From assembly GCA_951406725.2 (NCBI GenBank), contig OX597822.1:89714001-89778000 (forward strand): DNA of 64,000 nt. The letters run 5' to 3'. This DNA comes from Octopus vulgaris. Its lineage: Eukaryota. The notes under the pieces were generated by a model that saw only the letters and a program-made list of their open reading frames with translations, did not search any database and was not told where the DNA came from. The position numbers were made by a program, and so were the translations under genes. Shown piece by piece: positions 10,503 to 55,621 of the stretch. Numbering within the stretch: position 1 is the stretch's first letter; each line of letters begins with the position of its first letter.

Positions 10503-11241
10503 ATGGAAGATCCGATTCTGAAAAATTTTTTTTCAAAAATCACATTTTCAAAATTTCAATTCCCTCACTACCACTTCATTTTTCACTTTTTCATCATTGT
10601 TCGTGCGTTTGTACTGGTTTTAAGGGTTAGGGTTTTAGGGTTAGGGTGTTAGAGTTGGGGTAAGGGTGACAAACGAAATATACACCGCCGGAAGTTCTTG
10701 TTGACAAACAACAGCAGTAATTTTATTCAGCTGAATACACATCATTGATTGGTTGAAATTACCGAAATACGAGAACTTTCACGTGAAATATACAGTGACA
10801 AACGAAATATACACCGCCGGAAGTTCTTGTTGACAAACAACAGCAGTAATTTTATTCAGCTGAATACACATCATTGATTGGTTGAAATTACCGAAATACG
10901 AGAACTTTCACGTGAAATAACTTCATAAATATAAGATTTTCTCAAAAATGCTAATAGTAAAAGATGTTTTATATGATACATTCTACTTGTGTCTGAAGTT
11001 TGAAAGTGTTTAGTTACAAAAAATTATTTTTTAAATCTGTAGGTCAAAAGGTAAAGATACAAAATTTGTTTGGAAAATTTAAATTTTTCAACAATAAAAT
11101 AAAATATATATATATGCCCTCAGGCCTTCAAGCGGCCTATCCACATGCTAGAAATAACAGCCAAATCTCACAAAACTGCGATAACATAACGAAATTTCGA
11201 AAAATCGATTTTTGAAAAATTTTTTCGGAATCGGATCCTCC
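10503..11241. mobile_element. TIR-bounded non-autonomous element with TTAGGG-like tract and internal 129-bp tandem duplication
   Basis: ggaagatccgattctgaaaaattttttttcaaaaatc at the left is inverted to gatttttgaaaaattttttcggaatcggatcctcc at the right; 10666-10790 is repeated at 10795-10919. Confidence 0.6.
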
Positions 11242-18875: not shown

Positions 18876-18926
18876 ATGGATGCTGATAAAGACGTGCTTA
18901 GGAAAGAGTCACTTACATCGAAAAAG
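18876..18926 (+). CDS. SGO1: Shugoshin candidate exon 1 (MDADKDVLRKESLTSKK)
   Basis: ATG in aagATGg context, open to AAG|gtgaga donor; phase 0 matches exon 2. Could instead be a 5'UTR exon or unrelated, since exon 2 starts with its own ATG. Confidence 0.55.
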
Positions 18927-28589: not shown

Positions 28590-28798
28590 TAAATGCTTCA
28601 ACAAAAATGAAACAAACATTGAGATCTAACAACAAAGCTCTAGCTCACGCATTACAGGTTGCAAGACAAGATTTAGCATTGGCCACTAACATCATCACTT
28701 CTCTTAGATTGGATAATAGAAATATGATGCTTGAAGCTGCCAACAATAAGTATATGGCTTCACATTGTCTTGAAGAGCAAGTTGGTGCTCGGTTGAAG
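28590..28798 (+). CDS. SGO1: Shugoshin exon 3 (N-terminal coiled coil, PP2A-B56-binding region)
   Basis: tattttcag|...NASTKMKQTLRSNNKALAHALQVARQDL...LRLDNRNM...RLK|gtaagc; resembles the NN(K/R)xL(A/V)xAL core of shugoshin coiled coils. Confidence 0.92.
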
Positions 28799-31881: not shown

Positions 31882-32204
31882 TGGGTAACTTTCTGATACC
31901 CATAATAATATTTATGGCAAAATAGGCCTTAATTTCATTTAAGGTTGTGGGAAACAACAACCTATCCTTTCTTTCGCTTTGTTTACATTTAGCGTAACGG
32001 TTCATTTCCGCCGTAATTTTCTGATACCCACAATAATATTTATGGGTAACTTTCTGATACCCATAATAATATTTATGGCAAAATAGGCCTTAATTTCATT
32101 TAAGGTTGTGGGAAACAACAAACTATCCTTTCTTTCGCTTTGTTTACATTTAGCTTAACGGTTCATTTCCGCCGTAATTTTCTGATACCCACAATAATAT
32201 TTAT
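31882..32204. repeat. 161-bp tandem direct duplication
   Basis: 31882-32042 is nearly identical to 32043-32203; lies downstream of another TTAA|CCCTT terminus at 31536. Confidence 0.9.
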
Positions 32205-32907: not shown

Positions 32908-33615
32908 GAGTTCCTTTTGAGCATTGGGCCTCCCGGACGAGTTCCTTTTGAGCATTGGGCCTCCCGGACGAGTTCCTTTTGAGCATTGGGCCTCCCGGAC
33001 GAGTTCCTTTCGAGCATTGGCCTCCCGGACGAGTTCCTTTTGAGCATTGGGCCTCCCGGACGAGTTCCTTTCGAGCATTGGGCCTCCCGGACGAGTTCCT
33101 TTCGAGCATTGGGCCTCCCGGACGAGTTCCTTTCGAGCATTGGGCCTCCCGGACGGGTTCCTTTCGAGCATTGGGCCTCCCGGACGGGTTCCTTTCGAGC
33201 ATTGGGCCTCCCGGACGGGTTCCTTTCGAGCATTGGGCCTCCCGGACGGGTTCCTTTCGAGCATTGGGCCTCCCGGACGGGTTCCTTTCGAGCATTGGGC
33301 CTCCCGGACGGGTTCCTTTCGAGCATTGGGCCTCCCGGACGGGTTCCTTTCGAGCATTGGGCCTCCCGGACGGGTTCCTTTCGAGCACTGGGCCTCCCGG
33401 ACGGGTTCCTTTCGAGCATTGGGCCTCCCGGACGGGTTCCTTTCGAGCATTGGGCCTCCCGGACGGGTTCCTTTCGAGCATTGGGCCTCCCGGACGGGTT
33501 CCTTTCGAGCATTGGGCCTCCCGGACGGGTTCCTTTCGAGCATTGGGCCTCCCGGACGGGTTCCTTTCGAGCATTGGGCCTCCCGGACGGGTTCCTTTCG
33601 AGCATTGGGCCTCCC
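32908..33615. repeat. GC-rich 31-bp minisatellite, ~23 units
   Basis: Unit g(a/g)gttccttt(t/c)gagcattgggcctcccggac repeated head-to-tail with no spacers. Confidence 0.97.
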
Positions 33616-35538: not shown

Positions 35539-35696
35539 AACCCCTAATGAAAAGGTTTTGCTCAATAAAGATGCCATAGGTGATGTTGCTTTAAAGAAAA
35601 ATGTTAATTCCCAGATTTGTAATGAGCTCAGCTTCATTGCTGAGACTTTTATTAATACGGATTATACTTCAAATACACTTGATGTGTTGTCTAAAG
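35539..35696 (+). CDS. SGO1: Shugoshin exon 5
   Basis: ttttgtatttag|AACCCCT...TCTAAAG|gtaaat; TPNEKVLLNKDAIGDV...DVLSK; phases 2 and 1 fit. Confidence 0.8.
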
Positions 35697-36471
35697 GTAA
35701 ATATTACATGTTTAAATATTACAAATATTTATGATAAATTTACCAAAAATATTGTATTACAAATGTTTTGGAGAAGTACAAAAATGTAACCAATTTCATG
35801 TAAAAAATATTTACATCAGCACATTTTACACCCAGCTTTCTATGCTAGCATAGGATATATGTGACTCAGAGCATGTCACTGCTTATTGTGGTTGTGTGTA
35901 ATTTGGTTTTGAGGAATTCTTGTTGCAATGTTAATGCAGTTACACAAAAAGATATTGCCAAAGACTGAAGTACCATTATCATTATCTGCTACTGGGAGAT
36001 TAAAGGGGTTAGAACTATTAAGAGTCAAAACAAAGGTATAAGGTGAAATTTGTTGTACAAGGATATGGAACTATATTTACTTCTAATGTAAATGTAAGTT
36101 TGATTTTCTCCATTTGTAGTGTAGAGTAGTATTGTTTACAATTGCACCATAAAAACAGCATTTGTACAAGAGAGAGTGACAGCCAGGTTAAACTAAAAAT
36201 CATGTTAATGTATCTTGTTTTTATCTTTTAAAATGTGATTGAAAAATCGGTATATGTTTCTCATGAACTGAAGGAAATATGTTTGGCAACAAGACTTATA
36301 AAGAATTTTCTTCTTTATTTGTTGATTTCAATGTCAGCTGTAATGCTTCTCTTTCTTCCATTCTGTGTACAACAATAGTGGCTCTAGATAGTGAAAATGA
36401 ATAGAACATTTTGAAAATCTGCCATGAACACCATATGTGACTAGTGTCTGTAAAAGAAAAATGATAGACAT

Positions 36472-36870
36472 AGGCGCAGGAGTGGCTGTGTGGTAAGTAG
36501 CTTGTTTACCAACCACATGGTTCCGGGTTCAGTCCCACTGCGTGGCACCTTGGGCAAGTGTCTTCTACTATAGCCTCAGGCCGACCAAAGCCTTGTGAAT
36601 GGATTTGGTAGACGGAAACTGAAAGAAGCTCGTCGTATATATATATATATATATATATATGATTGTGTGTGTCTGTGTTTGTCCCCCTAGCATTGCTTGA
36701 CAACCGATGCTGGTGTGTTTATGTCCCCGTTACTTAGTGGTTCGGCAAAAAGAGACCGATAGAATAAGTACTGGGCTTACAAAAGAATAAGTCCCGGGGT
36801 CGAGTTGCTTGACTAAAGGTAGTGCTCCAGCATGGCCAGTCAAATGACTGAAACAAGTAAAAGAGTAAAA
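36472..36870 (+). mobile_element. Full-length tRNA/CORE-like SINE with LINE-like 3' tail
   Basis: A-box tggctgtgtgg, B-box ggttcagtccc, ccttgggcaagtgtctt core, internal (TA)n, tail gtgctccagcatggcc...actgaaacaagtaaaagag. Confidence 0.85.
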
Positions 36871-37538
36871 AGAGAGAGAGAGGTGTTGGTACTCTGCAGT
36901 GTGAGAAGTGCTGATGTTTCTGCTGAACATGATAAAACATTCACTAACTGATTACTTTATGCCAAAAAAGACAGGCTATTGCAAAGTCTATCTTTTCTCT
37001 TAGTCTTGGAGAACAGACTCCTCTTGCATAAGGCTGCACTTGTTGACTGCAGCATGGGAATTTTATGATGTCAATAGAGAAATCTTGGCACAGATTTTGC
37101 AAAGCTGTTTTTCCACAAGGGTTATATGTAAAGCTTTGCCAGATAACTATTTCTGAATTAAGTTCTTGATGAAGTAATAGCTACAACTATGGAGACAAGC
37201 ACTATCAATGTTCCATACAATGGAGTTAGCTCCAGTTGTGGCTGAAGTGACATCAGAGGAAGCAGCCACAACTCTCTCTCAGTTTGTCCTGAGATCAGGA
37301 ATGGTACTGGTAACACCAGAGGTAGCTGGTGTTACTAGTCATCAAAGTCAACAAATATATATCGGAGAGGCACTGAGCAGCTATAAGCACACATACACAC
37401 ACGGCAGTAGCTCCTGCCTACCGAATTCAATCACAAAGCTTCGGTTGGCTCGGGGCTATAGTGGAAGACACCTGCCCAAAGTGCCACGCAGTGGGACTGA
37501 ACCCGAAACCATGTAGCTAGGAAGCAAGCTCCCTAACC

Positions 37539-37569
<31 letters not shown>

Positions 37570-37599
37570 TATATACATATATATATGTGTGTGTGTGTG

Positions 37600-38000
37600 A
37601 TGGAAGGCCAAAACTGGAAGGCAGATTTACCCTACTTTCTTTACTAATGCATGATAACTCCCCACAGTGCAACCAGTGTCCCTCTTCGAGGCCCTTAATA
37701 GGAGGAAGATGAATGTCAGTCTACTTGGTGTCATGCATTATAAAACTTCTTTGTTTAATACATTCCTGCATAACCTTGAATAATGCTCTGAACAGTGATA
37801 AAATATAAACATATGCAGACCAGATCTGATGCACCCAAATTCTTCACTTCTCATGGACAACAGTGTGCTCATACAGCAATGAAGAGACTGTCTCTACCTT
37901 TCAAGGCAAGCCCATTTATAGTTGTCTAGAAAAGTAGGAATTTGGTAACAATAGAACATGGTTCCTATAAAATCTCATGCAATTTTTCATTCCTCAAGCA
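37600..38000 (+). mobile_element. Heavily decayed LTR-retrotransposon integrase C-terminal fragment
   Basis: NWKADLPYFL...TPHSATSV...KYKTYAD pattern only; weak. Confidence 0.35.
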
Positions 38001-39402
38001 TCTGAAGAAAAAGGCATATGAACTAACTGATGAACTGCTGTCAGTGATGCCACCTGAACCAATCAGGATGGACATAACTCCAAGGATATCATTTCAACCA
38101 AAATTTCCACTACAGCCTAAATTGAGTCAGAAAATGTAAACAAAACAAGGACAAACTGATGAAATTATAAATTACTAACAGTTTATTGTATATGGTGAAA
38201 ATTAAGTAATTTTCACTGTATGTGCCTGTAATTTGAATAAAAAAAAATTGAGGTAAAATGTTATATAAAATCTATTACAGAATTTCGGAGGTTTTTTTCT
38301 GACACCACTTTAATACATTAGAAGTATAATGAAAGGCAAAATAGCACAGCTGTTAGTGTTGAATAAAATGCCTTGTGGTATTTGTCCCAACTCTGTGCTC
38401 AAATTTCATGAGGTCCTGTCTAACCATGCTAGCATGGACAGTGGATGTTAAAAGATGATGATGTTAATTTTGCCTTTCAATTTTTCAAGGATAACAAAGA
38501 AAAATTAATTCAAAGTGGTGGATTGGTAAAACTGCTAGGTCAAAGAAGATGCCTTACAATATCGTTTTCTGGTTCTGTACACTGTAGAAACACCTGTGGT
38601 GTCAAGCTGCATCAGCCAACTCAGCAGCATTTCCCTTAGGCAACCTTGGTGGTATTGGAGAGGGAAGAGTTACATGGATGAATAAAAAAAAAAATTTTTT
38701 TTAAAAACCCTCACCCCTGCTTGCAGATGAATGATCAGCTTTGACTGCAGAGGCCCCCATTATTATAATAAAAGAAATACTTATGTATTTGGTTCCCCTT
38801 TATAATTAGATTATCAATTAACCAATCTCATTTCCTGGCATCACAACGTTTCATTTATGAACATTCGATATAGCTGAGGAACAGCAGAAGCTAATCTACT
38901 AGCAATATTTTTTTTAGAGAACTTTGTAACATCAAAGATGATCTCTATATTCAGTTATGGAATGTTATCTATCTTTTGATGATGGTAGCGAATATTTTTT
39001 CCAAGTAAAATAATCCCAATGATTATGAGATCAAAATGCAGTTACACAGATTTTTCTTATAAACTTTCTTATGTACTTTATGTTCCATTTTAAAAGTAAT
39101 GTTCTTTTTCAGACTTTTTTTATTGTTTTATACTGATTGAGATATCATGAATGTTTTTCATGAAACATTTTTCAAGTCTATTTTCTTGATGTTTCCATTT
39201 TGCTTGACATTATCAAAAAACAAATCAATGGTACAGAGATAAATTAATAATTATGATAAAATTGTAATTAAAGTTGATACACATTATTAAGACCCTGGGG
39301 AAAACAGAATTCTGTTCTATGTAATATTTGCTTATTGTTATTTATCATTATTTCATGATAAAGAGAAAAACTAATTCTTTTCTTTTCCTGTTCATTTTTT
39401 AG

Positions 39403-40101
39403 TTGATGAATTGGAATCTGAAAAATTGTGTAAAAATGCTGACGAAAATCATTTAAACGTCCCCATTGAAAAACCTAAAATTGCTACTAAAAGTCGCCCT
39501 GATGTAGAAAGACGTTCCAGTATTCAATTTAGACGGGAATCTCTGGATGAAATCGATTTTGGTTCAAATCTCCCAACTACCCGAAATAGGCGCCGTTCTT
39601 CATTACACTTGTCTGCTACAGGTCTTGACAAAAAGCGTCACCAACAATTGGATATTTTAGAACCGTCAGTTATTAAAGATTCTTGTGCAGAAGTTAATTT
39701 GGAAAATGCAGCTGACAGGGATAAAGTAGTTAAAAATAACTCTAACCATATTCCTTGTACTGATGCATCAATGCCAAATGGTAAAGCTGCAGAAACAGCC
39801 TTAATAGTTAATGATGCTGATAATGGTTTAAATAATGCCATACCCAACGTTACAATAACTGGTGAAGTTGACATGGAATTGACTGAAATAATAAACAACA
39901 CTGACGTAATGCATGAGTCATCACAAAATCTACCAACTGGTAATGATGTTCATCCATCTGATATAAATCTGGAGAAACAAAAGGATACGACTGTTGCTAA
40001 AGAAACTTTTGTTAAACCAACAGTAGCACCTAATAAAGTAAAAGCAAAAGGCAACAAAAAATCGTCAAAGAGCTCAAAGGATAAAAAGGAAGATGAAAGA
40101 G
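39403..40101 (+). CDS. SGO1: Shugoshin exon 6, copy A (699 bp, phase 1-1)
   Basis: ttcattttttag|TTGATGAATTG...GAAAGAG|gtgtgt; open frame DELESEKLCK...KEDER. Confidence 0.8.
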
Positions 40102-40374
40102 GTGTGTATTTCTTTTTTTCTAATTTGTTTCACTGCCTTTCTATAATGAAATGAAAGGATGCAAAATATAAAAATGCTGCTTAGGTGAAAACATTCACTG
40201 ACATGGTAATTCGTAATTTCTGCTACAAAACAAAATGTAGTGCTCTGTGAGAATAAATTGCTTTAATTCTATTGGTGGGGAATTAAGACTTATTACAACA
40301 TTTGATGGAAGGTCTTGCAGCATTTATTCAAAGACTTTAGTGTCTGAGTTCAAATTTCTCCAATGTCAAATTTA

Positions 40375-40530
40375 CTAAAAAAGAGGTTTTACTCTATAAA
40401 AATATCATGGGTGATGTTGTTTTGAAGAAAAATGTATATCTCCAGATTTTTAATGATCTAAGCTTGATTGCTGTGTTTTTTTTTATCAAGCTGGATTTTT
40501 ATTTCAAATACACTTGATTAACTCTAAAAA
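40375..40530 (+). pseudogene. Decayed duplicate of shugoshin exon 5
   Basis: gaggttttactctataaaaatatcatgggtgatgttgttttgaagaaaaatgt...ttcaaatacacttgat aligns to 35550-35695; acceptor and donor lost; similarity continues into the intron (41130-41570 vs 35800-36055). Confidence 0.8.
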
Positions 40531-40645
40531 TATCCCATGTTTAAATACTCCAGATATTCATAGTAAATTTGCCAAAAGTATTGTATAAACAAATGTTTTA
40601 TGCTTTTGAAAACTTTGCAGAAGAGTCACTATCGTCATTATTTAA

Positions 40646-40866
40646 CCCTTTCGTTACTGTATTTATTTTAAGATGCTCTGTGTTTCTTTCAATTACTTTA
40701 AATATAACAAAGAATTTAGTAAAATAACTTAGTTATCATTAAGCTAGTGTTAGGAGCATAAATTGTGACTAGGGTTTGGTGGAAAATTTTAATTCAAAAC
40801 TTATGAAAACAAGACATTTGTACTACAGAGCCATAGATGGTTTCAGCCAGGTTGGTAATGAAAGGG
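40646..40866. mobile_element. piggyBac-type MITE nested in an RTE-UTR repeat
   Basis: TTAA|ccctttcgttac...gtaatgaaaggg|TTAA; splits the tail (atcgtcattatttaa/tgtctgttttccatgc) of a minus-strand (GAT)n element. Confidence 0.85.
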
Positions 40867-42873
40867 TTAATGTCTGTTTTCCATGCTGGCATGGGTTGGA
40901 CAGTTTGACCAGAGTTGGCAGACAGGAGAGCTGCACCAGTTTCCACTTTGATGTGGTTTGAGTTCTACAGTTGGATGCCCTTCCTAATGCCTACCATTTT
41001 ACAGAGATGGCTGGGATCCTTCCTTATGGGGCATTGGCATGGGTGCTTTTATGTGGTGCCAGCATGGGCACTACTATATGGTGCTGACATGGGTGCTTTT
41101 TACATGCCACCAGCACAGGGCTCTTGGTGAGAAAAATATTTACATAAGCAGATCGTTTTACATCTAGCTTTCTATGCTAGCATGGGTTGGATGTATCTCA
41201 GCATGTTACCACTTGTTGTGGTACTTCATCATTTGCTGTACCCAGCAACAGAGAAAATGGCCAATTTTGTTGCTTTTATAAATTACACAGTAATTTATAA
41301 ATTATTTTGCTATATGGAGAGCATGAATGAAATACGACAAGTTATGCTTGAAATATCAGGCAGTGAATAGGATACAAAAGACAGAAAGCTGCAGGGTTTT
41401 GAGTAATTGTTGTTGAGTTAATGAAATTAGACAAAGTATTATTATAAAGACTGGAGTACCAGTATCATCATCTGTTGCTCTGTGGATAAAGGGATTGTAC
41501 TGAAAAGAGTATGTCAGTCAAATTATAAGAACTATTAAGAGTCAAAATGAAGTGTAAGATGAAATTTGTAGCTGTTCAATTGAGAAAAAAATATGGTTTA
41601 TCTAACATTCTTCTCTGGCCAATGTTATCAGGCTTCATCAGTAGAAGAATATTGTCTATTTTTGCTAGCCAGCTGTGTAGCAACAAGCTTGCTGTGCAGA
41701 ATGTTTATTAGAAAAATTGAAGTGATGCTGTAAAATGAGATTAACTGATAATTAAATTTTAAAAAAGCCACTCACTGCTTATTTAGTTACAAATTTCTTT
41801 TCAGTGTTTTCAAATACTGATCTTATTTGCTCAAAGAATAATGTTAATAAACCCACCCCATTACCTCTTTTTATCTCCTACTATTTCCACCTTTCTGTAC
41901 CCTGGCACTTTGCATCACTTTTGCACCCCACTCCATTTCATGTCCTCTTTGCTGCCATCTATTACCTTCCTGATCAACACTTACTTCCTCCAACATTCCT
42001 TCCACCTAATATTCACAATTGACCATGCCTCCATCATGTTCATCACTCACTGCAGTTACCCTCTATCCCCGTCATTATCCATCTGCCACTCACTTCTTAC
42101 ATTCCTACCAACTTACTTACCTGCCCATATCTCTTTTATTCACCTTCCTGTAATCTGAGGTTATGCCCTGAAGCATCTTCATTACCATTCTCTTTCTTGA
42201 CCAACAAGGGTAACTATGTAGCTCCCCCATAGAAAGACACCTGTTTCTGATTCCTATCTTAATTTAACTTCTCATCACCTAATATAAAGCTACTTCCTCA
42301 GTCCTACTATCCAACACAGTTGAGGGGTCTTAATTACTTAGTGACTTCACTAGTGCCAGCGTCATGTAAAAAGCATCCAGTACACTATAGGGGTTGGCAT
42401 TAGAGAGGGTACCCAGCCATAAAAGTAGTAAAAATGATACATTTGTCAGACGATAGGCTTCTTTCAGTTTCCATTCTACCATATCCTCTCACAAAGCTTT
42501 GGTTGGTCTGGGGTTATAGTAGAAGGCACTTGTCCAAGGTGTCAAACATTGGGATTGAACCCAAGACCACATGGTTGGGAAGCAAGTTTCTTAACCATAT
42601 AACCCTGCCTGTTCCTGTACTATGCCTACACACCTAAATTTAGCCCAGTAGACCATGTTATTGATTTAATCTTACATATAATAAAGCACAATGTGTGTTT
42701 CATTGGCCATGCTAGGGAAACAACTGTAAATGGAGTGGCAGTGAATGACAGAGACACTAAAAGGCGGGCAAACAGCATTCAATGGTTTTGCTCTGAAGAA
42801 GCTGATATTTTAATCAAAATAAAACTGCAGAGTTTTATTGTAAATTGTATTTAGTTTATCAGTTTAGTTTATC

Positions 42874-42909
<36 letters not shown>

Positions 42910-43029
42910 GTGCACACACACACACATACACACACACAAAATAGTTGTATATGAAATTGAATATTAAACACTTTTGTTTTCAAAATATTATCATTCACTT
43001 GAAGCACAATCTTCAAACTTTGTGCTTCA

Positions 43030-43625
43030 CCGAGGTGATGACAAGTGACTAAGACCTTTGGAGATATGCTGTGCTTGAGAAGACTCGGCAAGCCTAGTGA
43101 GGCCGTGGCCTATGCCAGTGCAGTATGACCAGCCCATCAAAGAGTACCCTTCAATCATTGGGGAATAAACTGCACTTGCAAAGACCTGTTGAGGCAAGTG
43201 AAGTCGTCATTCTGTTCGATGACAGTACCACCTGATTGGCACCTGTGCTGGTGGCATGTAAAAAGCACCATTCGAGTGTGGTTGATGCTGGTGTCGCCTG
43301 ACTGGTCCCGTGCCAGTGGCACGTAAAAAGCACCATTCGAGTGTGGCTGTTGCCAGTGCCACCTGATTGGCTTCCTTTCCGGTGGCACATAAGAAGCACC
43401 ATTCAAGCATGGCTGATGTCAGTACTGCCTGACAGGCCCTTGTGCCAGTGACATGTGAAAAGGACCCACTGCACTCTCAGAGTGGTTGGCATTAGAAAGG
43501 GCATCCAGCTGTAGAAACATTGCCAGATCGGATTGGAGCCTGGTGCGACCTCTTGGCTTGCCAGCCGTCACTCAAACTGTCCAACCCATGCCAGCATGGA
43601 AAGTGGTCTTTAAACGATGATGATA
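43030..43625 (+). mobile_element. RTE 3'UTR repeat with multiple ~57-nt internal subrepeats
   Basis: Repeated gtggcac(g/a)taaaaagcaccattc units, then the family tail ending aaacgatgatgat. Confidence 0.75.
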
Positions 43626-43849
43626 TCATATATATCTATATCAGTATATATATATATATATAAATGTTATGTGAATGATCATATGTAGATATATATTTGT
43701 ATATATACTTACATTTTTTTATATACTTACATTTCTTTTTCTTTTGTTTTGGTTCATTTTTCCATGCTTGCCCTTTGTGATACAAGCCCTTATTTCCTTT
43801 TTTAATTATAGGATAATTTATTTTACTGACTTCAATCTAAAACATGCAT

Positions 43850-43992
43850 GTGTGCACACATTCACACATGCATATATATATTTGTATATATATGCAGATA
43901 CATAGGTGTATATAAATATGTATGCATATGTATGATTATATGTATATATATATATATATACATACACACACATATGTACATATATATGCATG

Positions 43993-44030
<38 letters not shown>

Positions 44031-44300
44031 CACACACATATGTACATATATATGCATGTATATATATATATATACATACACATATGTACATATATATGCA
44101 CACACATGTACATATATATGCATGTATATATATATATATATACATACACACACACACATATGTACATATATATGCATGTATATATATATACATACACACA
44201 CATATGTACATATATATGCATGTATATATATATATATACATACATACACACACACACACATATGTACATATATATATATATATATATACACATACACACA
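43850..44300. repeat. Complex purine-pyrimidine microsatellite with higher-order unit
   Basis: Recurrent cacacatatgtacatatatatgcatgtata(ta)n units. Confidence 0.95.
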
Positions 44301-44301
44301 C

Positions 44302-44449
44302 AGAGTCCCCTCCTATTTATCATAGTCCTCCAGGCAATAACGGAGGAATTCAAGACAGGATGCCCCTAGGAGCTCCTCTATGCTGATGACCTTGCTCTAA
44401 TTGCTGAGTCACTATCAGAACTGGAGAAGTTTCAGGTGTGGAAACAAGG
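44302..44449 (+). mobile_element. RTE RT fragment truncated by an LTR
   Basis: [35 protein letters not shown]. Confidence 0.8.
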
Positions 44450-44854
44450 TGTAACGAAGGATCTGTTATCGATTCACTGAAAGGGTGTCGATATCCGATC
44501 TAGTCACATATAATCTCATAAGACAATACAGACGAAGTCAGGTTGAAGGTAAAAAGACAGCAGTTCGTTTATTTATTGTGATGTCGTACGTGTCTGATGG
44601 GAGAAATACAGCCTCTGATATACAGCTACGTGTTAGTTTGTTGATGGTCGTTGGCGGCTATCAGTGAGGTTGTCAGAGCCGTTGAATGTACGTCGTATCG
44701 CGGCAAGCTGTGGAGCCGGAGAGAAAGATTTGAGCTTGGCGGGCTTGAGGGAACGTTTCCCGCACATGCGCATGGGGGAAGACTTCCGGTGGCCACCCGG
44801 AAGTAGTCCCATTCTGCGCATGCGCGCTGAACCCTACACAGTAGCATCACTACA
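44450..44854 (-). mobile_element. Gypsy 3' LTR (minus strand)
   Basis: On minus: PPT-like gaggggag then TGTAGTGAT...CGTTACA; AATAAA inside; GCGCATGCGC and CCGGAAG motifs. Confidence 0.85.
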
Positions 44855-46700
44855 AGGCTCCCCTCTGAGTGCGAAGTATGACAACAAGAAAATTTGTGGT
44901 GGTGCTGCAGAAAACAGAAGGCTTGCCGATCCCCCAGAAGACTTGGTACATAATATCATACAACAAGAAAAATTTTTGAAAGAAAGTTAAATGTAGATTG
45001 TCTTTGAAAGTTTCTTGGGCCAATGCACTGTTCTGCCCGATTTTGTAACATACGGTGTGCTCGGGGCACCCGTTGACGGCGAGGGTGGTGTTGTAGGAGC
45101 CGGTGAAGGCAAAGGCGTCTGTGCAGGTGAAGGCGTTTGTGCAGGTGAATGTGCAGTCAAATCAATATGATGGCCTAGAAAATCTAGGGAAGAGCGTCCG
45201 AAAACACACTTGTCGGGATTTATGCGTATGCTATAAGCGCGAAGACGCTGAAAAAGCTGAGAAAGGTGCTGGAGATGATTTTTACGTGTGTCGCTCGCAA
45301 TGAGTATATCATCGACATAGGCAAACACAAAATCAAGACCGTGGACAACCTCATCAATGAAACGCTGGAAAGTGCTAGTAGCATTCCGCAAACCGAAACT
45401 CATGTACAAAAACTCAAAACACCCAAAGGGGGTAGTGATCGCAGTTTTCGGAACGTCGGCTGGGTTGACCGGTATTTGATGGTACGCGCGTATAAGGTCG
45501 ACCTTCGAAAAAATGGTACAACCATGGAGATTTGCCGTAAAGTCCCGGAGATTTCTAATCGGGTATCTGTCGGCTATAGTTACGGCATTGAGGCGTCGAT
45601 AGTCTCCAACCGGGTGAAAATCAGACTCGCCCTTTCGGGCCAAATGAAGGGGAGATGCCCATGGGCTGGTGGAGGGGCGTATAAGGCCAAGTTGAAGCAT
45701 GTGCTCAAACTCGGCCCTGGCCGTTTCTAGTCGGTCTGGCGCAAGGCGCCGTGGTCGTGAAAATACAGGTAGCCCATTGGTGGTGATGAAATGGAGGGTC
45801 GAGTGGGTAGGCTTTTCCGGTTTAAAGGCAATGTCCACTAGCTCCGGAAATTAAACCAAAAGAGAGTGAAAAGGGTCTCCAGAGGTGGCAACAAAGAATG
45901 TCGGGCTAAGGACCGCAGTGGTGGAACTCCCAGTTGGTGTAGAGAGTGACGTCGTGCTATCAAGAAGCCTCCGACGCCTGACATCCACCAATTGATTAAA
46001 CCTATCCAGGAAATCAGCGCCGAGAATAGGATGCGGGATGTCAGCTATGACGAAAACCCATTGAAAGTCTCGACGAAGGTTGAGGTCGAGGCGCAGCGAA
46101 ATCTGACCGTAAGTGGTTATGGGAGACGAGTCAATAGCATGCAAGACAATCGAAGAGCGCTTGGGCTTGTCTGCAGCCAGACGAAGGGGCCAGATGCTGC
46201 AACAGGAGCCGGTGTCCACCATGAAGAATTTCTTCGACACCAGATCTTTTACAAAGAATGCACGATGTTTGGGAAACGAGATGGAAGAAGGTGACGTGCT
46301 CACCTCCTCCGGATTTAGTTTTCCGAGGGCTTGAAAGTGCACGGCTGGGTACACCAATCTGCCTTTTCGGCATACTTCGAATGGTACCAGCACCAGCTGG
46401 AACAAGAAACAGAGTCACTCCGACTACGGGAAATAGAGCTACTGCGACTACGACTGCGAGATAGGCGCCCGATCGCACGGCATAGATCATCGATTCTCCG
46501 CGTAAGCGCATCGATGTTCTCGGCTAGTTTATCATTCGTCGGAGGGGGCTCTGTACATGCGTACAGGCCCCGCGAGGGAGATGGGCGCGAAAACTCCAAC
46601 ACCTTGTCGGCCATCGTGGCGATCTGGTCCACAGACACAGAATCCAGTGCTGTGAACAAAAAAATCCAGTTTTTTCTGCCAAGTCTGAACACGATCAACT
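44855..46700 (-). mobile_element. Ty3/Gypsy gag-protease-RT, internally deleted
   Basis: gag end CWYHSKYAEKADWCTQPC; protease FMVDTG...ILGADFL; RT SPWASPL...DYRRLN...FAYVDDILI...FLGH, fused directly to the integrase tail TKSGRTVHWP (RNase H and integrase core missing). Confidence 0.92.
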
Positions 46701-47324
46701 GTGCACAGTCATCATCCTTCGACGATTTGTTTCCGGTCCCCTCAAACAGTTATAAAAGGAGCCTCTCTTATTTACAGCAATAATGACGACACTAACATAC
46801 ACCACGGATGCCTTCATATCATCGATGCCTTTTCTCTGCCGTCGTCATCACCATCGTCGTCTTTCGACTTCACGTCGTCGTTATCTTCGTCGCCAGCAAC
46901 ACTAAGCAACAATGTGTCTCAAGTCCGTCACTGTCGCCTTCAACACCGTTGACCTCAACAATATGTAAATAGCAACTCGCGGAAGTTTAGCTTTCACGCT
47001 GTTAGTGTATACACACCAGGATTAACAGCACAGTCTACCTGCGAGATCTTCTGTACCAATTTAACCTGTCACAGCATTGAAGCCACAACCGCTACACGAC
47101 ATGTGTTCAACCGGCATCTGCATTTGTGATCTCAGCATTCTATTACAGAACGAACTGCTATTATGTATCAGGCTATTACGGACTGGTAAATTAACTCCAT
47201 CTTGTCTGAAATACCCTGAGAGACTTTTTTTTTCCTATGCGCTGTATTTTTATTTTGCTCGCATTGGATTTTTTTGTTGTTAAGTGATCTCTGGTTCAAG
47301 ACCAGAATCACGTCAGGGTCACCT

Positions 47325-47820
47325 TGTTTGTACTTCTGTCGCACACACGTACACACATAGTTAATACACACACAAATGCTATCTCTCTCACATTCATACG
47401 TCACACATGCCTTTCTCGCTTGTTTTTCCATGCTCAATTTGCCTTTGTAGACACAACTCATCTCTGTAAGACCCTAGGTCGGTCACGTATACATAGAGAA
47501 AGTTGTTTGTCCATTATAACGCGCCAGCATGTCACACTTTTGTTCCTGCACGACCGAGGCATATAATCGCTCAAGCACTGGCTGGCAGCCTCAGCCTTAC
47601 TACATTAACCACTGGCATATTCATTGCTGTGTTTCAGTCTAGCAAGCCCTATTACATTCATGCACCTCTGTTCTGCACGTGTACTGCCTTGTTTTGCAAC
47701 ACGTCTGCGTCAGCTCAATTCTTTTCCCGACTCAAAGAACGTCGGATGTTCACATGCGCTGCGCCCATGTTTAGGCGTAATTTTTTCCCTGTTAGACCCC
47801 TGTTGGTCACGTAATTAACA
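47325..47820 (-). mobile_element. Probable 5' LTR of a different LTR family, with PBS
   Basis: On minus TGTT...AACA termini followed by aggtgaccctgacgtg (PBS-like, 47309-47324); not similar to the other two LTRs. Confidence 0.55.
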
Positions 47821-48430
47821 GAGAAAATTATCTGTCTCGCGCATCACACCAGCATGCTTGCACTGTCACCTTGCTAACCTTACACTTTCAGCTGAAGCAC
47901 TGTCTGCCTTTTGTGTTACTAGCGATCTATCTGTCAATTCCATTTCCTCTCCTGCAGCAATTGACTTAACTGCTATTTCGCAGGATCAACCACCTTTAGA
48001 GGAGTTGGATTTAACTTCGCCTAGGTTTATTAACTGTAAGTTTGCCTAGCTTCTGCTCCTTTCAGCGGAAGGCTCTATACTTTGTGACGTATCCACCGGT
48101 TCTCCTAGACCGTTAGTACCTGAGAAACATCAACGTTCTGTGTTTGATGCTCTTCATTCACTGTCACATCCAGGTATCTCTGCCACAGTTCTTTTGGCCC
48201 AATATGCGACGATCGATTACCTCTTGGGCATGCTCTTGTTTGAAGTGCCAGAGTGCTAAGGTCCATGGACACGTTCGTGCTCCACTTGGACAGTTTTCTT
48301 CTCCTGAAGCCCGTTTTCGCCATGTCCACCTTGATTTGGTTGGACCATGGCCTGTGAGTAATGGGTTCTCATATATATTTAACTTTATCGATCATTTCTC
48401 ATGTTGGCCGGAAGCTATTCTTATTCACAC
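47821..48430 (+). mobile_element. Gypsy integrase N-terminal fragment
   Basis: LCDVSTGSPRPLVP...HSLSHPG...FFWPNM...CLKCQ (HHCC), HVHLDLVGP...IDHFSCWPEAI. Confidence 0.9.
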
Positions 48431-48619
48431 ATGCACCTTTGATTTTGCTCATTTTGAGTATTTTTTCTCTTTTTTCCTTTTGGTAAATTTTCTTGTGTAT
48501 ATTGTAAATTCTGCCATTTTGTTATATTGTGTGCTATTTTGGTTATCTGGTATCCACCTTGAGTTTTTATTAGTCACTACAAGGAATATTGTTCGTGCTT
48601 AGGCACTGGGGGGGAGCTT

Positions 48620-49143
48620 TGTAGTGATCCTATACAACGGTGCGCGCGTGCGCACCGCCCTTTTCTGTTTCGCGCGTGCAGAGTTGGTGCTTTCACCAAG
48701 GCAGAGGGGAAGAGCCCTCTCGCGCATGCGCAAAGACCGGAAGAGGGAATTTGCTGACGTGGCGTTTGGCTTGTTAGGCGAAGGGAGCGTGAACCTTAAA
48801 AGGGTCCAGAGAGATATAGCAGCAGTAGGCAGTGACTTGAGACACGGCGACTGAAGGTTGCAGACGTAGTCTTTTCGCTCTCTCCGGACGCCATTTTGAC
48901 TAGTTCTGTTTTTTAGCGGCTGAACATTGTAAAATCTTACAAGCGATAAAGTTCAGCTCTGACACATCCATACCAAGGGATACCAGATACACCACTTATT
49001 TCGTTCTGTGGATAAGAGAATAAAGTATATATATTTTTTACGTTTGCGTCTTCTGACTGGTAGAATCTGGATATTAAAAGCAACGGAAAGTGATTGCACC
49101 ACTTGCACCCAAAAAGTGCAATAAGCTATTCGTTCCCGTTACA
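48620..49143 (+). mobile_element. Gypsy 3' LTR (sense to shugoshin)
   Basis: PPT gggggggag 48608-48616, TGTAGTGAT...CGTTACA termini, AATAAA 49019-49024. Confidence 0.88.
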
Positions 49144-49675
49144 TATATATATATATATATATATAATATGTGTGTGTGTCTGTGTCCTCATAACTTAGAT
49201 GTTCAGCAGAAGAGACTGATGGAATAAGCACCAGGCTTACAGGGAATAGTAAGTCCAGGGGTCGATTTCTTCAACTAAAGAGTAGTGCTCCAGCATGGCC
49301 ACCATCAAATGACAAACAAGTAAAGGAACAAAAGAATATCACAAGAACGTTCCATACCACTAAACCACAAAGGTTCTTTGAATATGTACAATGTATTTTA
49401 AGGTTAAACAGTAATTCTGTTTATGTTTGCATAACTGAAATATTTTGGTTGGATTATATAGTTATCGGTTTTACACTTCTTTCTATATTCTGTAACCGTC
49501 ACAATATAGAAACATTTCTCATGGCACCAGCACACAATTTACACATGCTTACATTTTTTATGTTTTCCATGAATTTTTCATGGGTCCAGCTAGTAATAAA
49601 TTATTATTTTTCATAATTTTGTTTTCTATGATAAAGGTAAAACCTAATTCTTTTCTTTTCCTATTCATTTTTTAG

Positions 49676-50374
49676 TTGAATTGGAATCTGAAAAATTGTG
49701 TAAAAATGCTGACGAAAATCATTTAAACGTCCCCATTGAAAAACCTAAAATTGCTACTAAAAGTCGCCCTGATGTAGAAAGACGTTCCAGTATTCAATTT
49801 AGACGGGAATCTCTGGATGAAATCGATTTTGGTTCAAATCTCCCAACTACCCGAAAAAGGCGCTGTTCTTCATTACACTTGTCTGCTACAGGTCTTGACA
49901 AAAAGCGTCACCAACAATTGGATATTTTAGAACCGTCAGTTATTAAAGATTCTTGTGCAGAAGAAGTTAATTTGGAAAATGCAGCTGACAGGGATAAAGT
50001 AGTTAAAAATAACTCTAACCATATTCCTTGTACTGATGCATCAATGCCAAATGGTAAAGCTGCAGAAACAGCCTTAGTAGTTAATGATGCTGATAATGGT
50101 TTAAATAATGCCATACCCAACGTTACAATAACTGGTGAAGTTGACATGGAATTGACTGAAATAATAAACAACACTGACGTAATGCATGAGTCATCACAAA
50201 ATCTACCAACTGGTAATGATGTTCATCCATCTGATATAAATCTGGAGAAACAAAAGGATACGACTGTTGCTAAAGAAACTTTTGTTAAACCAACAGTAGC
50301 ACCTAATAAAGTAAAAGCAAAAGGCAACAAAAAATCGTCAAAGAGCTCAAAGGATAAAAAGGAAGATGAAAGAG
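49676..50374 (+). CDS. SGO1: Shugoshin exon 6, copy B (699 bp, phase 1-1)
   Basis: ttcattttttag|TTGAATTG...GAAAGAG|gtgtgt; open frame, about 99% identical to copy A. Confidence 0.85.
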
Positions 50375-50709
50375 GTGTGTATTTCTTTTTTTCTAATTTG
50401 TTTCACTGCCTTTCTATAATGAAATGAAAGGATGCAAAATATAAAAATGCTGCTTAGGTGAAAACATTCACTGACATGGTAATTCGTAATTTCTGCTACA
50501 AAACAAAATGCAGGTCTACAGTCACAAATTTACAGAATCTATTTGATGTAATTAAATATTATGCTTCAAAGTAATGAAATTGAAAACTGAGTACTTCAAG
50601 GTAACTTAGTTTGTTTGTATTTTCTCCTATTGTTTCTCTATTAAAATAAGAAACAAACTGGTCCATTTTCAATTTGAATTAAGAAACTTTCTTTTTTTTT
50701 TCTTTTTAG

Positions 50710-52175
50710 ATAAATGCAAAGAAACTGATGATAATGAAAATAAAACTGTTATTGAGTTAAGGTTACCAAAACCTGGGAAGATTGTTTTTTCCGCGACAAG
50801 GAAAAAATTTTCTGGTCTTCGACCATCTGCACCCAATGTCAGATCAAAAAAGAAAATTAACGAAGAGAAAAAAGACAGGGAAGAACCAAAATCTTTGTTT
50901 GATTTCCATGACAAAACTCCTCAATTGTTAAATAAGAAAGACGTAAAAGATGAAGGCATTTATAATGTTTCTTTGAATGATTCTACATTTGGTAAATGCC
51001 AAAGTCTTGGTCAATATCGTGAGCGAGTTGCCATGGCAAAAGAGAAGAAAAAAGAAGAGATTACTGATGTCAAAGATAATTCAGACAAAATTATTAATGA
51101 TAACCAAACTGTATCCAGAATTTCTAATGAGTGCAATGAAGAAAAGATAAAACTTTCACAGTCTAAGAAATCATTAACTAAAGATCAGCCTGTTGCTAGA
51201 AAAAAGTCACGTTCAAGGAAAAAAATAGATGATGATGATGATGAAGACTATGAAAGCAAACATATATCTACATGTGAAACTAATGTTCCTGTGAGAACTC
51301 TTACCCGCAGAACACGGTCAAAAGTTGTTAGTTATGCAGAAGTTGATGAAAGTTTTGATACAAGTGTTATAAAACCACAAGCTACACCAGAAATTAATAA
51401 AAATTGTCAAAAGACTACTACGAGATTAGAATTGGTTGGTTCTGATAAGACTGATGGAGGCATGAAACAATCTGAAAATTCTAAAATAACCAATAAAAAT
51501 AGTTTAAAGCAAGATTCCGAGATGGTGATTTCAAGTCCTTCTCAAAGTCCCAAGGGGAAAACTTCTGAACTTTCTAACTCCAACAGCAAATCAACAATGA
51601 ATGAATTGCACAAAGACAGAGCACAAAAGCATTCTAAACCAAATGAAAATTTAGAAAAAGGAACTGTATCCTCATTAAAACAATCAAGTAACGTCAGTGA
51701 CATTCTTGAGCGCTATAGAAAAGCTTTACAAGATGATGACGTTTCCACTAATGTACCCTTAAGGATGAGAGGCAGATCAAGCAGTCATATACGGAGAGAA
51801 TCTTTGACCAACTCAACTGCAGAAAATGCTAGAATTGGTTCATCCAAACATAGATCACGATCAGCTTCTTCTGTTAAAGCAGGTAGTACCAATTCAGGAA
51901 CAGACTGCTGTAATTCAGATGAAAAAATGCTTTCTGAATTATCATCAACTAAAATCACAAAAGAGAAAAGACAATCCAGATTAAGTAAAGGAAAACTTAG
52001 CAAATTAGAACAGGAAATTAGTACAAAAAATGTCAGATCCCGATCTAGAAAATCACATAGAAATGTTCCAGAGAAGACGGACAAAGAAAATTTCAGCGAA
52101 AAGACACCTGATTTGATTAATGCTGATGACATTTTAAAAATGAAAAAAGATGTTCACTCTAAAGTGAAAGGAAAG
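50710..52175 (+). CDS. SGO1: Shugoshin exon 7 (large K/S/D/E-rich disordered region)
   Basis: ttctttttag|ATAAATGC...GGAAAG|gtaaat; 1466 bp open; phases 1 and 0 fit. Confidence 0.9.
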
Positions 52176-55546: not shown

Positions 55547-55621
55547 GGACACCTTTAGTGTTAAACGTCCTCGAAGAAATGCCATTAAATCAATATCATA
55601 CAGAGAGCCTGCATTAAACTT
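55547..55621 (+). CDS. SGO1: Shugoshin exon 9 (first part of SGO motif)
   Basis: tttttcag|GGACACC...AACTT|gtaagt; DTFSVKRPRRNAIKSISYREPALN matches the RxRR....(V/I)SYxEPxL shugoshin C-terminal motif. Confidence 0.93.

What the first reader, a model, noticed from the sequence alone, without database searches (positions are those of the whole stretch)
35539..50510. Old tandem duplication in which only the exon-6 tract is homogenised (gene-conversion signature)
The duplicated unit also included exon 5 and intron 5. Their second copies (40375-40600 and 41130-41570 vs 35545-36055) are heavily diverged (roughly 70-80% by eye), have lost splice sites and carry independent TE insertions. Yet exon 6 plus 136 bp of downstream intron (40102-40237 = 50375-50510) are essentially identical, and upstream identity decays within about 35 bp of the acceptor. 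Selection on protein cannot explain identical intron and synonymous sites, so recent intragenic gene conversion (concerted evolution) is the simplest reading.
Basis: partly seen in the sequence, partly recalled or inferred. Interest (0 to 1): 0.7.

Follow-up and report, generated by a model that had tools for sequence, protein, structure and literature searches.

The report
Octopus shugoshin exon pair kept identical
In an octopus gene that likely encodes shugoshin, a guard of chromosome cohesion, one exon sits in two nearly identical copies inside an otherwise decayed old duplication, likely because recombination has copied one over the other; a paper-nautilus gene model shows the same exon doubled with its own near-identical copies.

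Summary
In an octopus shugoshin-like gene, exon 6 occurs twice (39403-40101, 49676-50374; 699 bp each). Exon plus 136 bp of intron differ at 3 of 832 sites and two 3-bp indels, with 0 of about 286 silent sites different. The duplicated exon-5/intron-5 pieces differ at 83 of 443 sites (about 30 My by a borrowed clock). DNA contigs of other organisms carry both copies, so it is no artefact. RNA contigs join exon 5 to 6A (4 of 4 runs) and exon 6 to 6B (listed in 3 of 4), so both copies are likely spliced in tandem. Octopus sinensis has the same pair; an Argonauta hians gene model has this exon doubled too, 114 of 117 residues alike at the 5' end but diverged at the 3' end, and copies group by lineage. 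Cuttlefish have one copy. Best reading: an old tandem duplication whose frame-breaking exon-5 copy decayed, while selection kept exon 6 intact as a substrate for gene conversion. Corrections: a repeat insertion, not gradual decay, bounds the 5' side; most of intron 5 has no counterpart; conversion after the vulgaris-sinensis split is only suggested. Known process, new and tidy case.

The parts
18876..18926 (+). coding exon 1 of the shugoshin-like gene
   Evidence: tblastn and exact peptide match to P0006
27151..27271 (+). exon 2
   Evidence: 100% to P0006 18-57, AG/GT edges
28590..28798 (+). exon 3, start of the N-terminal coiled coil
   Evidence: helix 56-164 at high pLDDT
32675..32850 (+). 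exon 4
35539..35696 (+). exon 5, 158 bp, phase 2 to 1, functional copy
   Evidence: RNA contigs cover it and splice to 39403 in 4 of 4 runs
35697..36053 (+). start of intron 5, the part with a diverged counterpart in unit 2
39351..39402 (+). acceptor flank of 6A, 4 of 52 sites differ from copy B
39403..40101 (+). exon 6A, 699 bp, phase 1-1, 233 codons, predicted disordered
40102..40237 (+). intron tract after 6A, identical to 50375-50510
40238..40374 (+). 137-bp unique stretch of unclear origin; likely holds the duplication junction
   Evidence: no significant match to intron 4 end or to the rest of intron 6; no other genomic match found
40375..40599 (+). decayed copy of exon 5 and intron-5 start; both splice sites lost, frame broken
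   Evidence: 31 of 145 and 11 of 66 sites differ
40640..41130 (.). interspersed repeats inserted in the intron-5 copy
   Evidence: many repeat matches
41132..41569 (+). three further diverged blocks of the intron-5 copy
44600..49135 (-). retrotransposon remnant with reverse transcriptase frame between the copies (limits approximate)
   Evidence: Pfam RVT_1 E 9e-31 at 44987-45847; multi-copy at 48250-49135; ORFs
49168..49611 (+). high-copy SINE-like repeat ending about 65 bp before the 6B acceptor; 5' wall of the homology
   Evidence: 1013 candidates, 38 of 40 scored matches are this repeat; 80-88% to 6 of 6 fetched copies
49623..49675 (+). acceptor flank of 6B
49676..50374 (+). exon 6B, 699 bp, phase 1-1
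50375..50510 (+). intron tract after 6B
50710..52175 (+). exon 7
   Evidence: 100% to P0006 705-1193
55548..55621 (+). exon 9, most of the C-terminal SGO-like basic motif
   Evidence: Shugoshin_C on P0006 1246-1267, below cut-off

Best explanation
Two near-identical, spliced copies of exon 6 lie in an octopus shugoshin-like gene inside a tandem duplication whose other parts are about 19% diverged, and the exon copies were likely homogenised by non-allelic gene conversion within the last few million years. The duplication took in exon 5, intron 5, exon 6 and at least 136 bp of intron 6 (shown by order and homology). The exon-5 copy (158 bp) would shift the frame after 6A, while 6B (699 bp, phase 1-1) does not (shown); so the exon-5 copy likely lost its splice sites and its surroundings filled with indels and repeats, ending exchange there about 30 My ago or earlier (inferred, borrowed clock). 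Selection on the reading frame likely kept both exon-6 copies free of insertions, leaving about 835 bp of unbroken homology 10 kb apart on which conversion could go on, bounded by a repeat upstream of 6B and the end of homology downstream (inferred). The protein gains a second 233-residue disordered block. The doubled exon in Argonauta is either the same ancestral duplication homogenised separately (my estimate 60%) or a second duplication (40%).
For: Three layers of divergence in one colinear unit: 83 of 443, 4 of 52, 3 of 832 (flank vs tract p=3e-4). 0 of about 150 synonymous and 0 of 136 intron sites differ; all 3 substitutions change the protein, and the exon is only about 40% identical to Argonauta, so protein constraint is weak. 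DNA contigs: run X3 (organism B) lists all four flanks with the shared tract collapsed at 93 vs 45-51 depth; X2 112 vs 48-56. RNA contigs: exon 5 to 6A in 4 of 4 runs, exon-6 end to 6B start listed in 3 of 4; 4 of 5 O. sinensis isoforms and the O. vulgaris model hold both copies. Argonauta copies: 114 of 117 identical at the 5' end, then diverged, with homologous last 30 residues (14 of 30; 0 of 100000 shuffles). Tree of 9 sequences groups copies by lineage; grouping by position rejected, AU p=2e-44. In organisms B and C copy A differs from copy B at two sites 22-25 bp from the tract end, where the window and organism A runs have none.
Against: Non-reciprocal transfer is not shown. Both 3-bp indels are shared by position between O. 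vulgaris and O. sinensis, and paralog distance (2-3 amino-acid changes) equals ortholog distance (2-3), so no full homogenisation since their split. Zero silent differences has P=0.006 under the literature clock but 0.07-0.15 with the flank divergence seen here. The two tract-end differences cannot be polarised. No GC rise in the tract: GC3 0.22 vs 0.23 in exon 7; intron 0.29 vs 0.25 and 0.32. About 3.3 kb of intron 5 has no counterpart and the junction was not located. The exon-5 copy is 79% identical to exon 5 in DNA while the Argonauta ortholog is 23 of 48 in protein, so exchange or the duplication itself postdates that split. The Argonauta evidence is one predicted protein without DNA. A back-spliced circle of 6B would give the same RNA junction.
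Confidence: 0.76

Rival explanations
1. Repeated unequal crossing-over between the two exons (one-copy and three-copy intermediates) homogenised the tract, not conversion.
For: Gives the same end sequence. The contig of organism D joins the 6B upstream flank to the 6A downstream flank, the shape of a middle copy in a three-copy allele.
Against: That contig has depth under 10 and can be a graph path through the collapsed tract. Depth in X2 and X3 is about twice the flanks, as for two copies. A return to two copies with both outer flank pairs intact needs two well-placed crossovers.
Confidence: 0.11
2. A fresh copy of exon 6 with short flanks was inserted a few million years ago; the decayed exon-5 copy comes from a separate older event.
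For: Homology stops sharply at both ends; most of intron 5 has no counterpart.
Against: The 52-bp acceptor flank is significantly older than the tract (p=3e-4). The pieces in unit 2 keep the order of unit 1. The repeat upstream of 6B is 12-20% from its relatives, older than the tract. Argonauta has an old-ended pair of the same exon.
Confidence: 0.08
3. Purifying selection on the RNA or DNA sequence itself (splicing or pairing elements) keeps both copies alike.
For: The acceptor flank is more conserved than other intron blocks (4 of 52 vs 83 of 443, p=0.053).
Against: The exon has changed freely between lineages (about 40% protein identity to Argonauta) and carries silent changes in other organisms' contigs; selection would conserve orthologs as well as paralogs.
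Confidence: 0.03
4. Assembly or polishing artefact (false duplication or over-polished copy).
For: Run X2 may be the window's own sample; Logan contigs drop minor variants.
Against: Runs of three other organisms carry flanks of both copies; O. sinensis records from another assembly hold both exons, 98% alike, with their own differences; spliced junctions specific to each copy.
Confidence: 0.02

Closest known systems
Mosaic concerted evolution of gene pairs BMP8A/B, DDX19A/B, TUBG1/2 (PMC2720389; passages read)
   Same: Part of an old duplicate, exon with adjoining intron, stays more alike between paralogs than between orthologs; trees look like repeated independent duplications.
   Different: Those are whole paralogous genes with raised GC in converted parts; here two exons of one gene, both in one transcript, with no GC rise.
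Duplicated exon 26a/26b of Nav1.4 in salamanders (PMC8476164; passages read)
   Same: Old tandem duplicate exon in one gene with conversion between the copies.
   Different: There the exons are alternative terminal exons, diverged, with 56-77 bp tracts; here the whole 699-bp exon plus intron is homogenised and both copies are joined in series.
KNL1 MELT repeat arrays (PMC4558858; passages read)
   Same: Disordered region of a chromosome-segregation protein in which motif-bearing blocks are multiplied and evolve in concert in separate lineages.
   Different: KNL1 has many short repeats with a known ligand, explained by unequal crossover; here one intron-bounded 233-residue unit in two copies, with no known ligand.
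Dscam mutually exclusive exon arrays (PMC3236188; abstract read)
   Same: Tandemly duplicated exons within one gene.
   Different: Mutually exclusive, diverged, and no sign of conversion was found there.
Shugoshin family (Pfam PF07557/PF07558)
   Same: N-terminal coiled coil, long disordered middle, C-terminal basic motif.
   Different: Internal exon doubling, seen in 2 of the cephalopod lineages sampled (Octopus, Argonauta) and not in cuttlefish or other mollusc homologs.

Membership tests
Shugoshin | C-terminal SGO basic motif | tested here: inconclusive
   Shugoshin_C at residues 1246-1267, 17.2 bits, cut-off 23.3; of 7 homologous proteins scanned 6 hit and 2 (P0024, P0025) pass the cut-off; UniRef names P0006 a Shugoshin C-terminal domain protein
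Shugoshin | N-terminal coiled coil related to Sgo1 | tested here: met
   Helix 56-164 at pLDDT mostly 77-94; profile hits human Sgo1 chain 3fga_D weakly, E 0.4, 1 of 2 hits; top 4 Atlas rows shown include shugoshins at 0.79-0.82, leads only. The exon alone found nothing in Pfam or PDB
Shugoshin | PP2A binding and centromeric protection of cohesin (recalled) | not testable with these tools
   no functional data
Concerted evolution by gene conversion | Paralogs closer than orthologs across species | tested here: met
   Met for Octopus vs Argonauta (AU p=2e-44); not resolved between O. vulgaris and O. sinensis, where indels group by position
Concerted evolution by gene conversion | Identity at silent and intron sites inside an older duplicate | tested here: met
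   0 of about 286 vs 52 of 298
Concerted evolution by gene conversion | Duplication older than the species compared | tested here: inconclusive
   Older than vulgaris-sinensis (shared); shared origin with Argonauta not shown
Concerted evolution by gene conversion | Non-reciprocal transfer without copy-number change | not testable with these tools
   needs phased population or gamete data
Concerted evolution by gene conversion | Raised GC in the tract (common, not obligatory) | tested here: not met
Mutually exclusive duplicated exons | Only one copy per transcript | tested here: not met
   exon-6 end joined to 6B start in 3 of 4 RNA runs; 4 of 5 O. sinensis isoforms hold both; isoform X5 holds 6A only
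False duplication in an assembly | Uniform near-allelic identity, absent from independent data | tested here: not met

The most novel reading that the evidence does not exclude
One exon of shugoshin was doubled in the ancestor of argonauts and octopuses and has since been re-homogenised separately in each lineage because two matching blocks of basic phospho-site-like motifs are favoured: a KNL1-like, conversion-maintained motif dosage in the cohesion protector. The part homogenised in both lineages is the 5' 100 or so residues holding the R/K-R-x-S/T-hydrophobic motifs (their reading as Aurora-type sites is recalled).
Probability: 0.2. Interest if true: 0.65.

Novelty: new member of a known kind. 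Interest (0 to 1): 0.42.

Why it matters
It is a compact natural experiment on where concerted evolution stops: in one 15-kb unit, a frame-breaking exon copy and introns dropped out of exchange while the frame-preserving exon stayed in, with an inserted repeat as one wall. It warns that near-identical exon copies misdate a duplication by about fifty-fold (0.5 vs 30 My by the same clock) and collapse in short-read assemblies. If shared with Argonauta, it points to long-held selection on the disordered middle of a chromosome-segregation protein, testable with existing octopod genomes. The process itself is textbook.

Tried and rejected
Locating the duplication junction: 40238-40374 matched neither the end of intron 4 (236 of 500 shuffles as good; anchored 14 of 150) nor the rest of intron 6 (391 of 500; 33 of 150); the control passed (0 of 60). 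More octopod species: a search for shorter relatives found 0 among 2539 candidates; the representatives search gave 15 proteins, with no full-length octopod besides P0002 and P0007; metagenome contigs 0 of 107 candidates. So no O. bimaculoides or Amphioctopus copy was seen. Using collapsed contigs to claim variants shared by both copies was rejected: contigs keep one path (the 6B form of the 3-bp insertion was kept in 8 of 8 runs), which may be an assembler bias. Polarising the two tract-end differences with organism D was rejected: its 2 of 8 differences are unlisted and its position in the tree is unknown. Contig depth in RNA runs was not used to rank expression. No run was on record as RNA; the spliced joints, not the label, carry the argument. 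No exon 5-to-6B joint or use of the exon-5 copy was among the 15 joints shown, but 161 were hidden. Pfam search of the own genome for Shugoshin_C missed even this gene, so it says nothing on paralogs. One search was uninformative. The synonymous-site count used a wrong frame and was redone. A longer Mytilus isoform (P0036) has no such repeat. Earlier findings of the scan: none returned.
Full report
Observation. The window is 37.5% GC, repeat-rich animal DNA at G000:C9:89714001-89778000. Its only long near-identical pair is 39334-40240 vs 49600-50513, and the genome search finds just these two places. Exons 6A (39403-40101) and 6B (49676-50374) are each 699 bp with AG/GT edges. They differ by 3 substitutions in 696 columns, all non-synonymous, and two balancing 3-bp indels; the next 136 intron bases are identical, and homology then stops. 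Between the copies lie diverged copies of exon 5 and the first 360 bp of intron 5, in the same order, with 83 of 443 aligned sites different; these have no other match in the genome. Both splice sites of the exon-5 copy fall in small deletions in the alignment.

Refinements. Upstream of the acceptors similarity lasts 52 bp (4 different) and ends next to a high-copy SINE-like repeat at 49168-49611. Much of the spacer is repeats, including a retrotransposon remnant. The middle 3.3 kb of intron 5 has no detectable counterpart, and the junction could not be placed.

The gene. Ten of its coding exons lie in the window and match a named Octopus vulgaris protein (P0006) and O. sinensis LOC115216772. 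It has a long N-terminal helix and is otherwise predicted disordered, exon 6 included. Shugoshin_C hits the C-terminus below cut-off in cephalopods and above it in 2 of 4 other mollusc homologs scanned; the profile weakly hits human Sgo1; Atlas leads agree. I call it shugoshin-like and likely the shugoshin.

Not an artefact. I laid 4 of the 24 listed runs as DNA. X3 (organism B) lists all four flanks with the tract collapsed at about twice their depth; X2 (organism A, possibly the window's own sample) lists three flanks and the same doubling; X5 lists three, X7 two. O. sinensis records hold both exons with their own differences.

Both copies are used. In 4 further runs, spliced contigs join exon 5 to 6A in 4 of 4; a joint from the exon-6 end to the 6B-type start is listed in 3 of 4, with 106 rows hidden. 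A 6B circle would give the same joint, but 4 of 5 O. sinensis isoforms and the O. vulgaris model hold both copies in series. Exon 5 is 158 bp and would shift the frame after 6A; exon 6 would not. This explains which part of the duplicate survived (inference).

Across species. The Argonauta hians model P0007 has the same exon twice: 114 of 117 residues alike, then divergence, with homologous final 30 residues (14 of 30, 0 of 100000 shuffles). Its copies are about 40% identical to the Octopus ones. None of the 14 proteins of the two cuttlefish-like clusters (one named Sepia pharaonis) has such a repeat. On 9 sequences and 95 columns of the 5' part, copies group by lineage and grouping by position is rejected (AU p=2e-44). 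This fits one old duplication homogenised twice or two duplications. Against a simple ancestral story, both old layers look younger than the Octopus-Argonauta split: the Octopus exon-5 copy is 79% identical in DNA to exon 5, and the Argonauta tails are closer to each other (score 67) than either is to Octopus (8, 39). I put a shared origin at about 60%, because two duplications of the same exon are a priori unlikely.

Timing. With dS 0.0036 per My (PMC13282606, passages; taken as per lineage) the old blocks stopped exchanging about 30 My ago, a minimum since only alignable blocks count; the acceptor flank about 11 My (4 sites, wide error); the tract about 0.5 My. O. vulgaris and O. sinensis split 2.5 My ago (PMC10700109, passages) and share both indels by position, so the whole tract has not been overwritten since. 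Partial later events are suggested: 0 of about 286 silent sites differ (P 0.006 by clock, 0.07-0.15 by the 5-7 differences in 763 flank bases seen here), and organisms B and C have two copy-A-specific bases near the tract end that the window and runs X11, X15 lack. Direction could not be fixed. There is no GC rise.

Mechanism. Shown: colinear duplicate, three divergence layers, silent identity, both exons spliced, repeat at the 5' edge, lineage grouping. Inferred: frame selection removed the exon-5 copy and kept exon 6 insertion-free; conversion between copies 10 kb apart did the homogenising (0.76). Rivals: repeated unequal crossing-over (0.11), a fresh inserted copy (0.08), selection on the nucleotide sequence (0.03), artefact (0.02). 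Why two copies are kept is untested; the stretch homogenised in both lineages carries two or three R/K-R-x-S/T-hydrophobic motifs per copy, also present in other molluscs, and their reading as kinase sites is recalled.

Comparison. The pattern is mosaic concerted evolution as described for mammalian gene pairs (PMC2720389, passages), with a duplicated-exon precedent in newt Nav1.4 (PMC8476164, passages) and a functional analogue in KNL1 (PMC4558858, passages); Dscam exons are the contrast (PMC3236188, abstract). PMC9635652 (passages) gave no Argonauta-Octopus date. I found no paper on this case: searches for shugoshin with octopus (1 paper, unrelated by its listing), shugoshin with mollusc (7 listings) and cephalopod with exon duplication and gene conversion (0); other searches were seen as listings only. 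Subscription journals are mostly not covered and no supplements were read, so a mention in genome-paper tables could be missed.

Verdict. Real, correctly read by the first stage in essence, and strengthened by the Argonauta parallel. A new member of a known kind; interest 0.42.

Noticed in passing
window 10616-10919: A perfect 129-bp-period tandem pair (10666-10919) beside a short telomere-like run.
   Followed up: no
window 32910-33615 and 31882-32204: GC-rich 31-bp minisatellite of 22.8 copies at 98% in intron 4, and a 161-bp tandem pair at 98% in intron 3.
   Followed up: no
window 50710-52175 (exon 7): O. sinensis isoform X3 lacks 15 residues from inside this exon, which would be an intron within an exon.
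   Followed up: no
window 39403-40101 and 50710-51100: Short motifs in exons 6 and 7 are nearly invariant across 12 mollusc homologs in an otherwise disordered region (alignment positions 389-399, 492-509, 535-542); Argonauta copy A has lost the first of them. Candidate binding motifs.
   Followed up: partly
window 39688/49959: Contigs of 8 of 8 runs keep the 6B form of the 3-bp insertion although both reference proteins lack it in 6A; assembler bias or a spreading converted allele.
   Followed up: partly
window 49615-50510, run X7: One low-depth contig joins the 6B upstream flank to the 6A downstream flank; graph path or a hybrid copy.
   Followed up: no
P0007 residues about 560-690: Argonauta copy B carries its own short tandem Lys/Val/Pro-rich repeats that lengthen it to 314 residues.
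   Followed up: no
window 50540 and 50648: Organisms B and C share a 22-bp insertion and a 3-bp deletion in intron 6 relative to the window.
   Followed up: no
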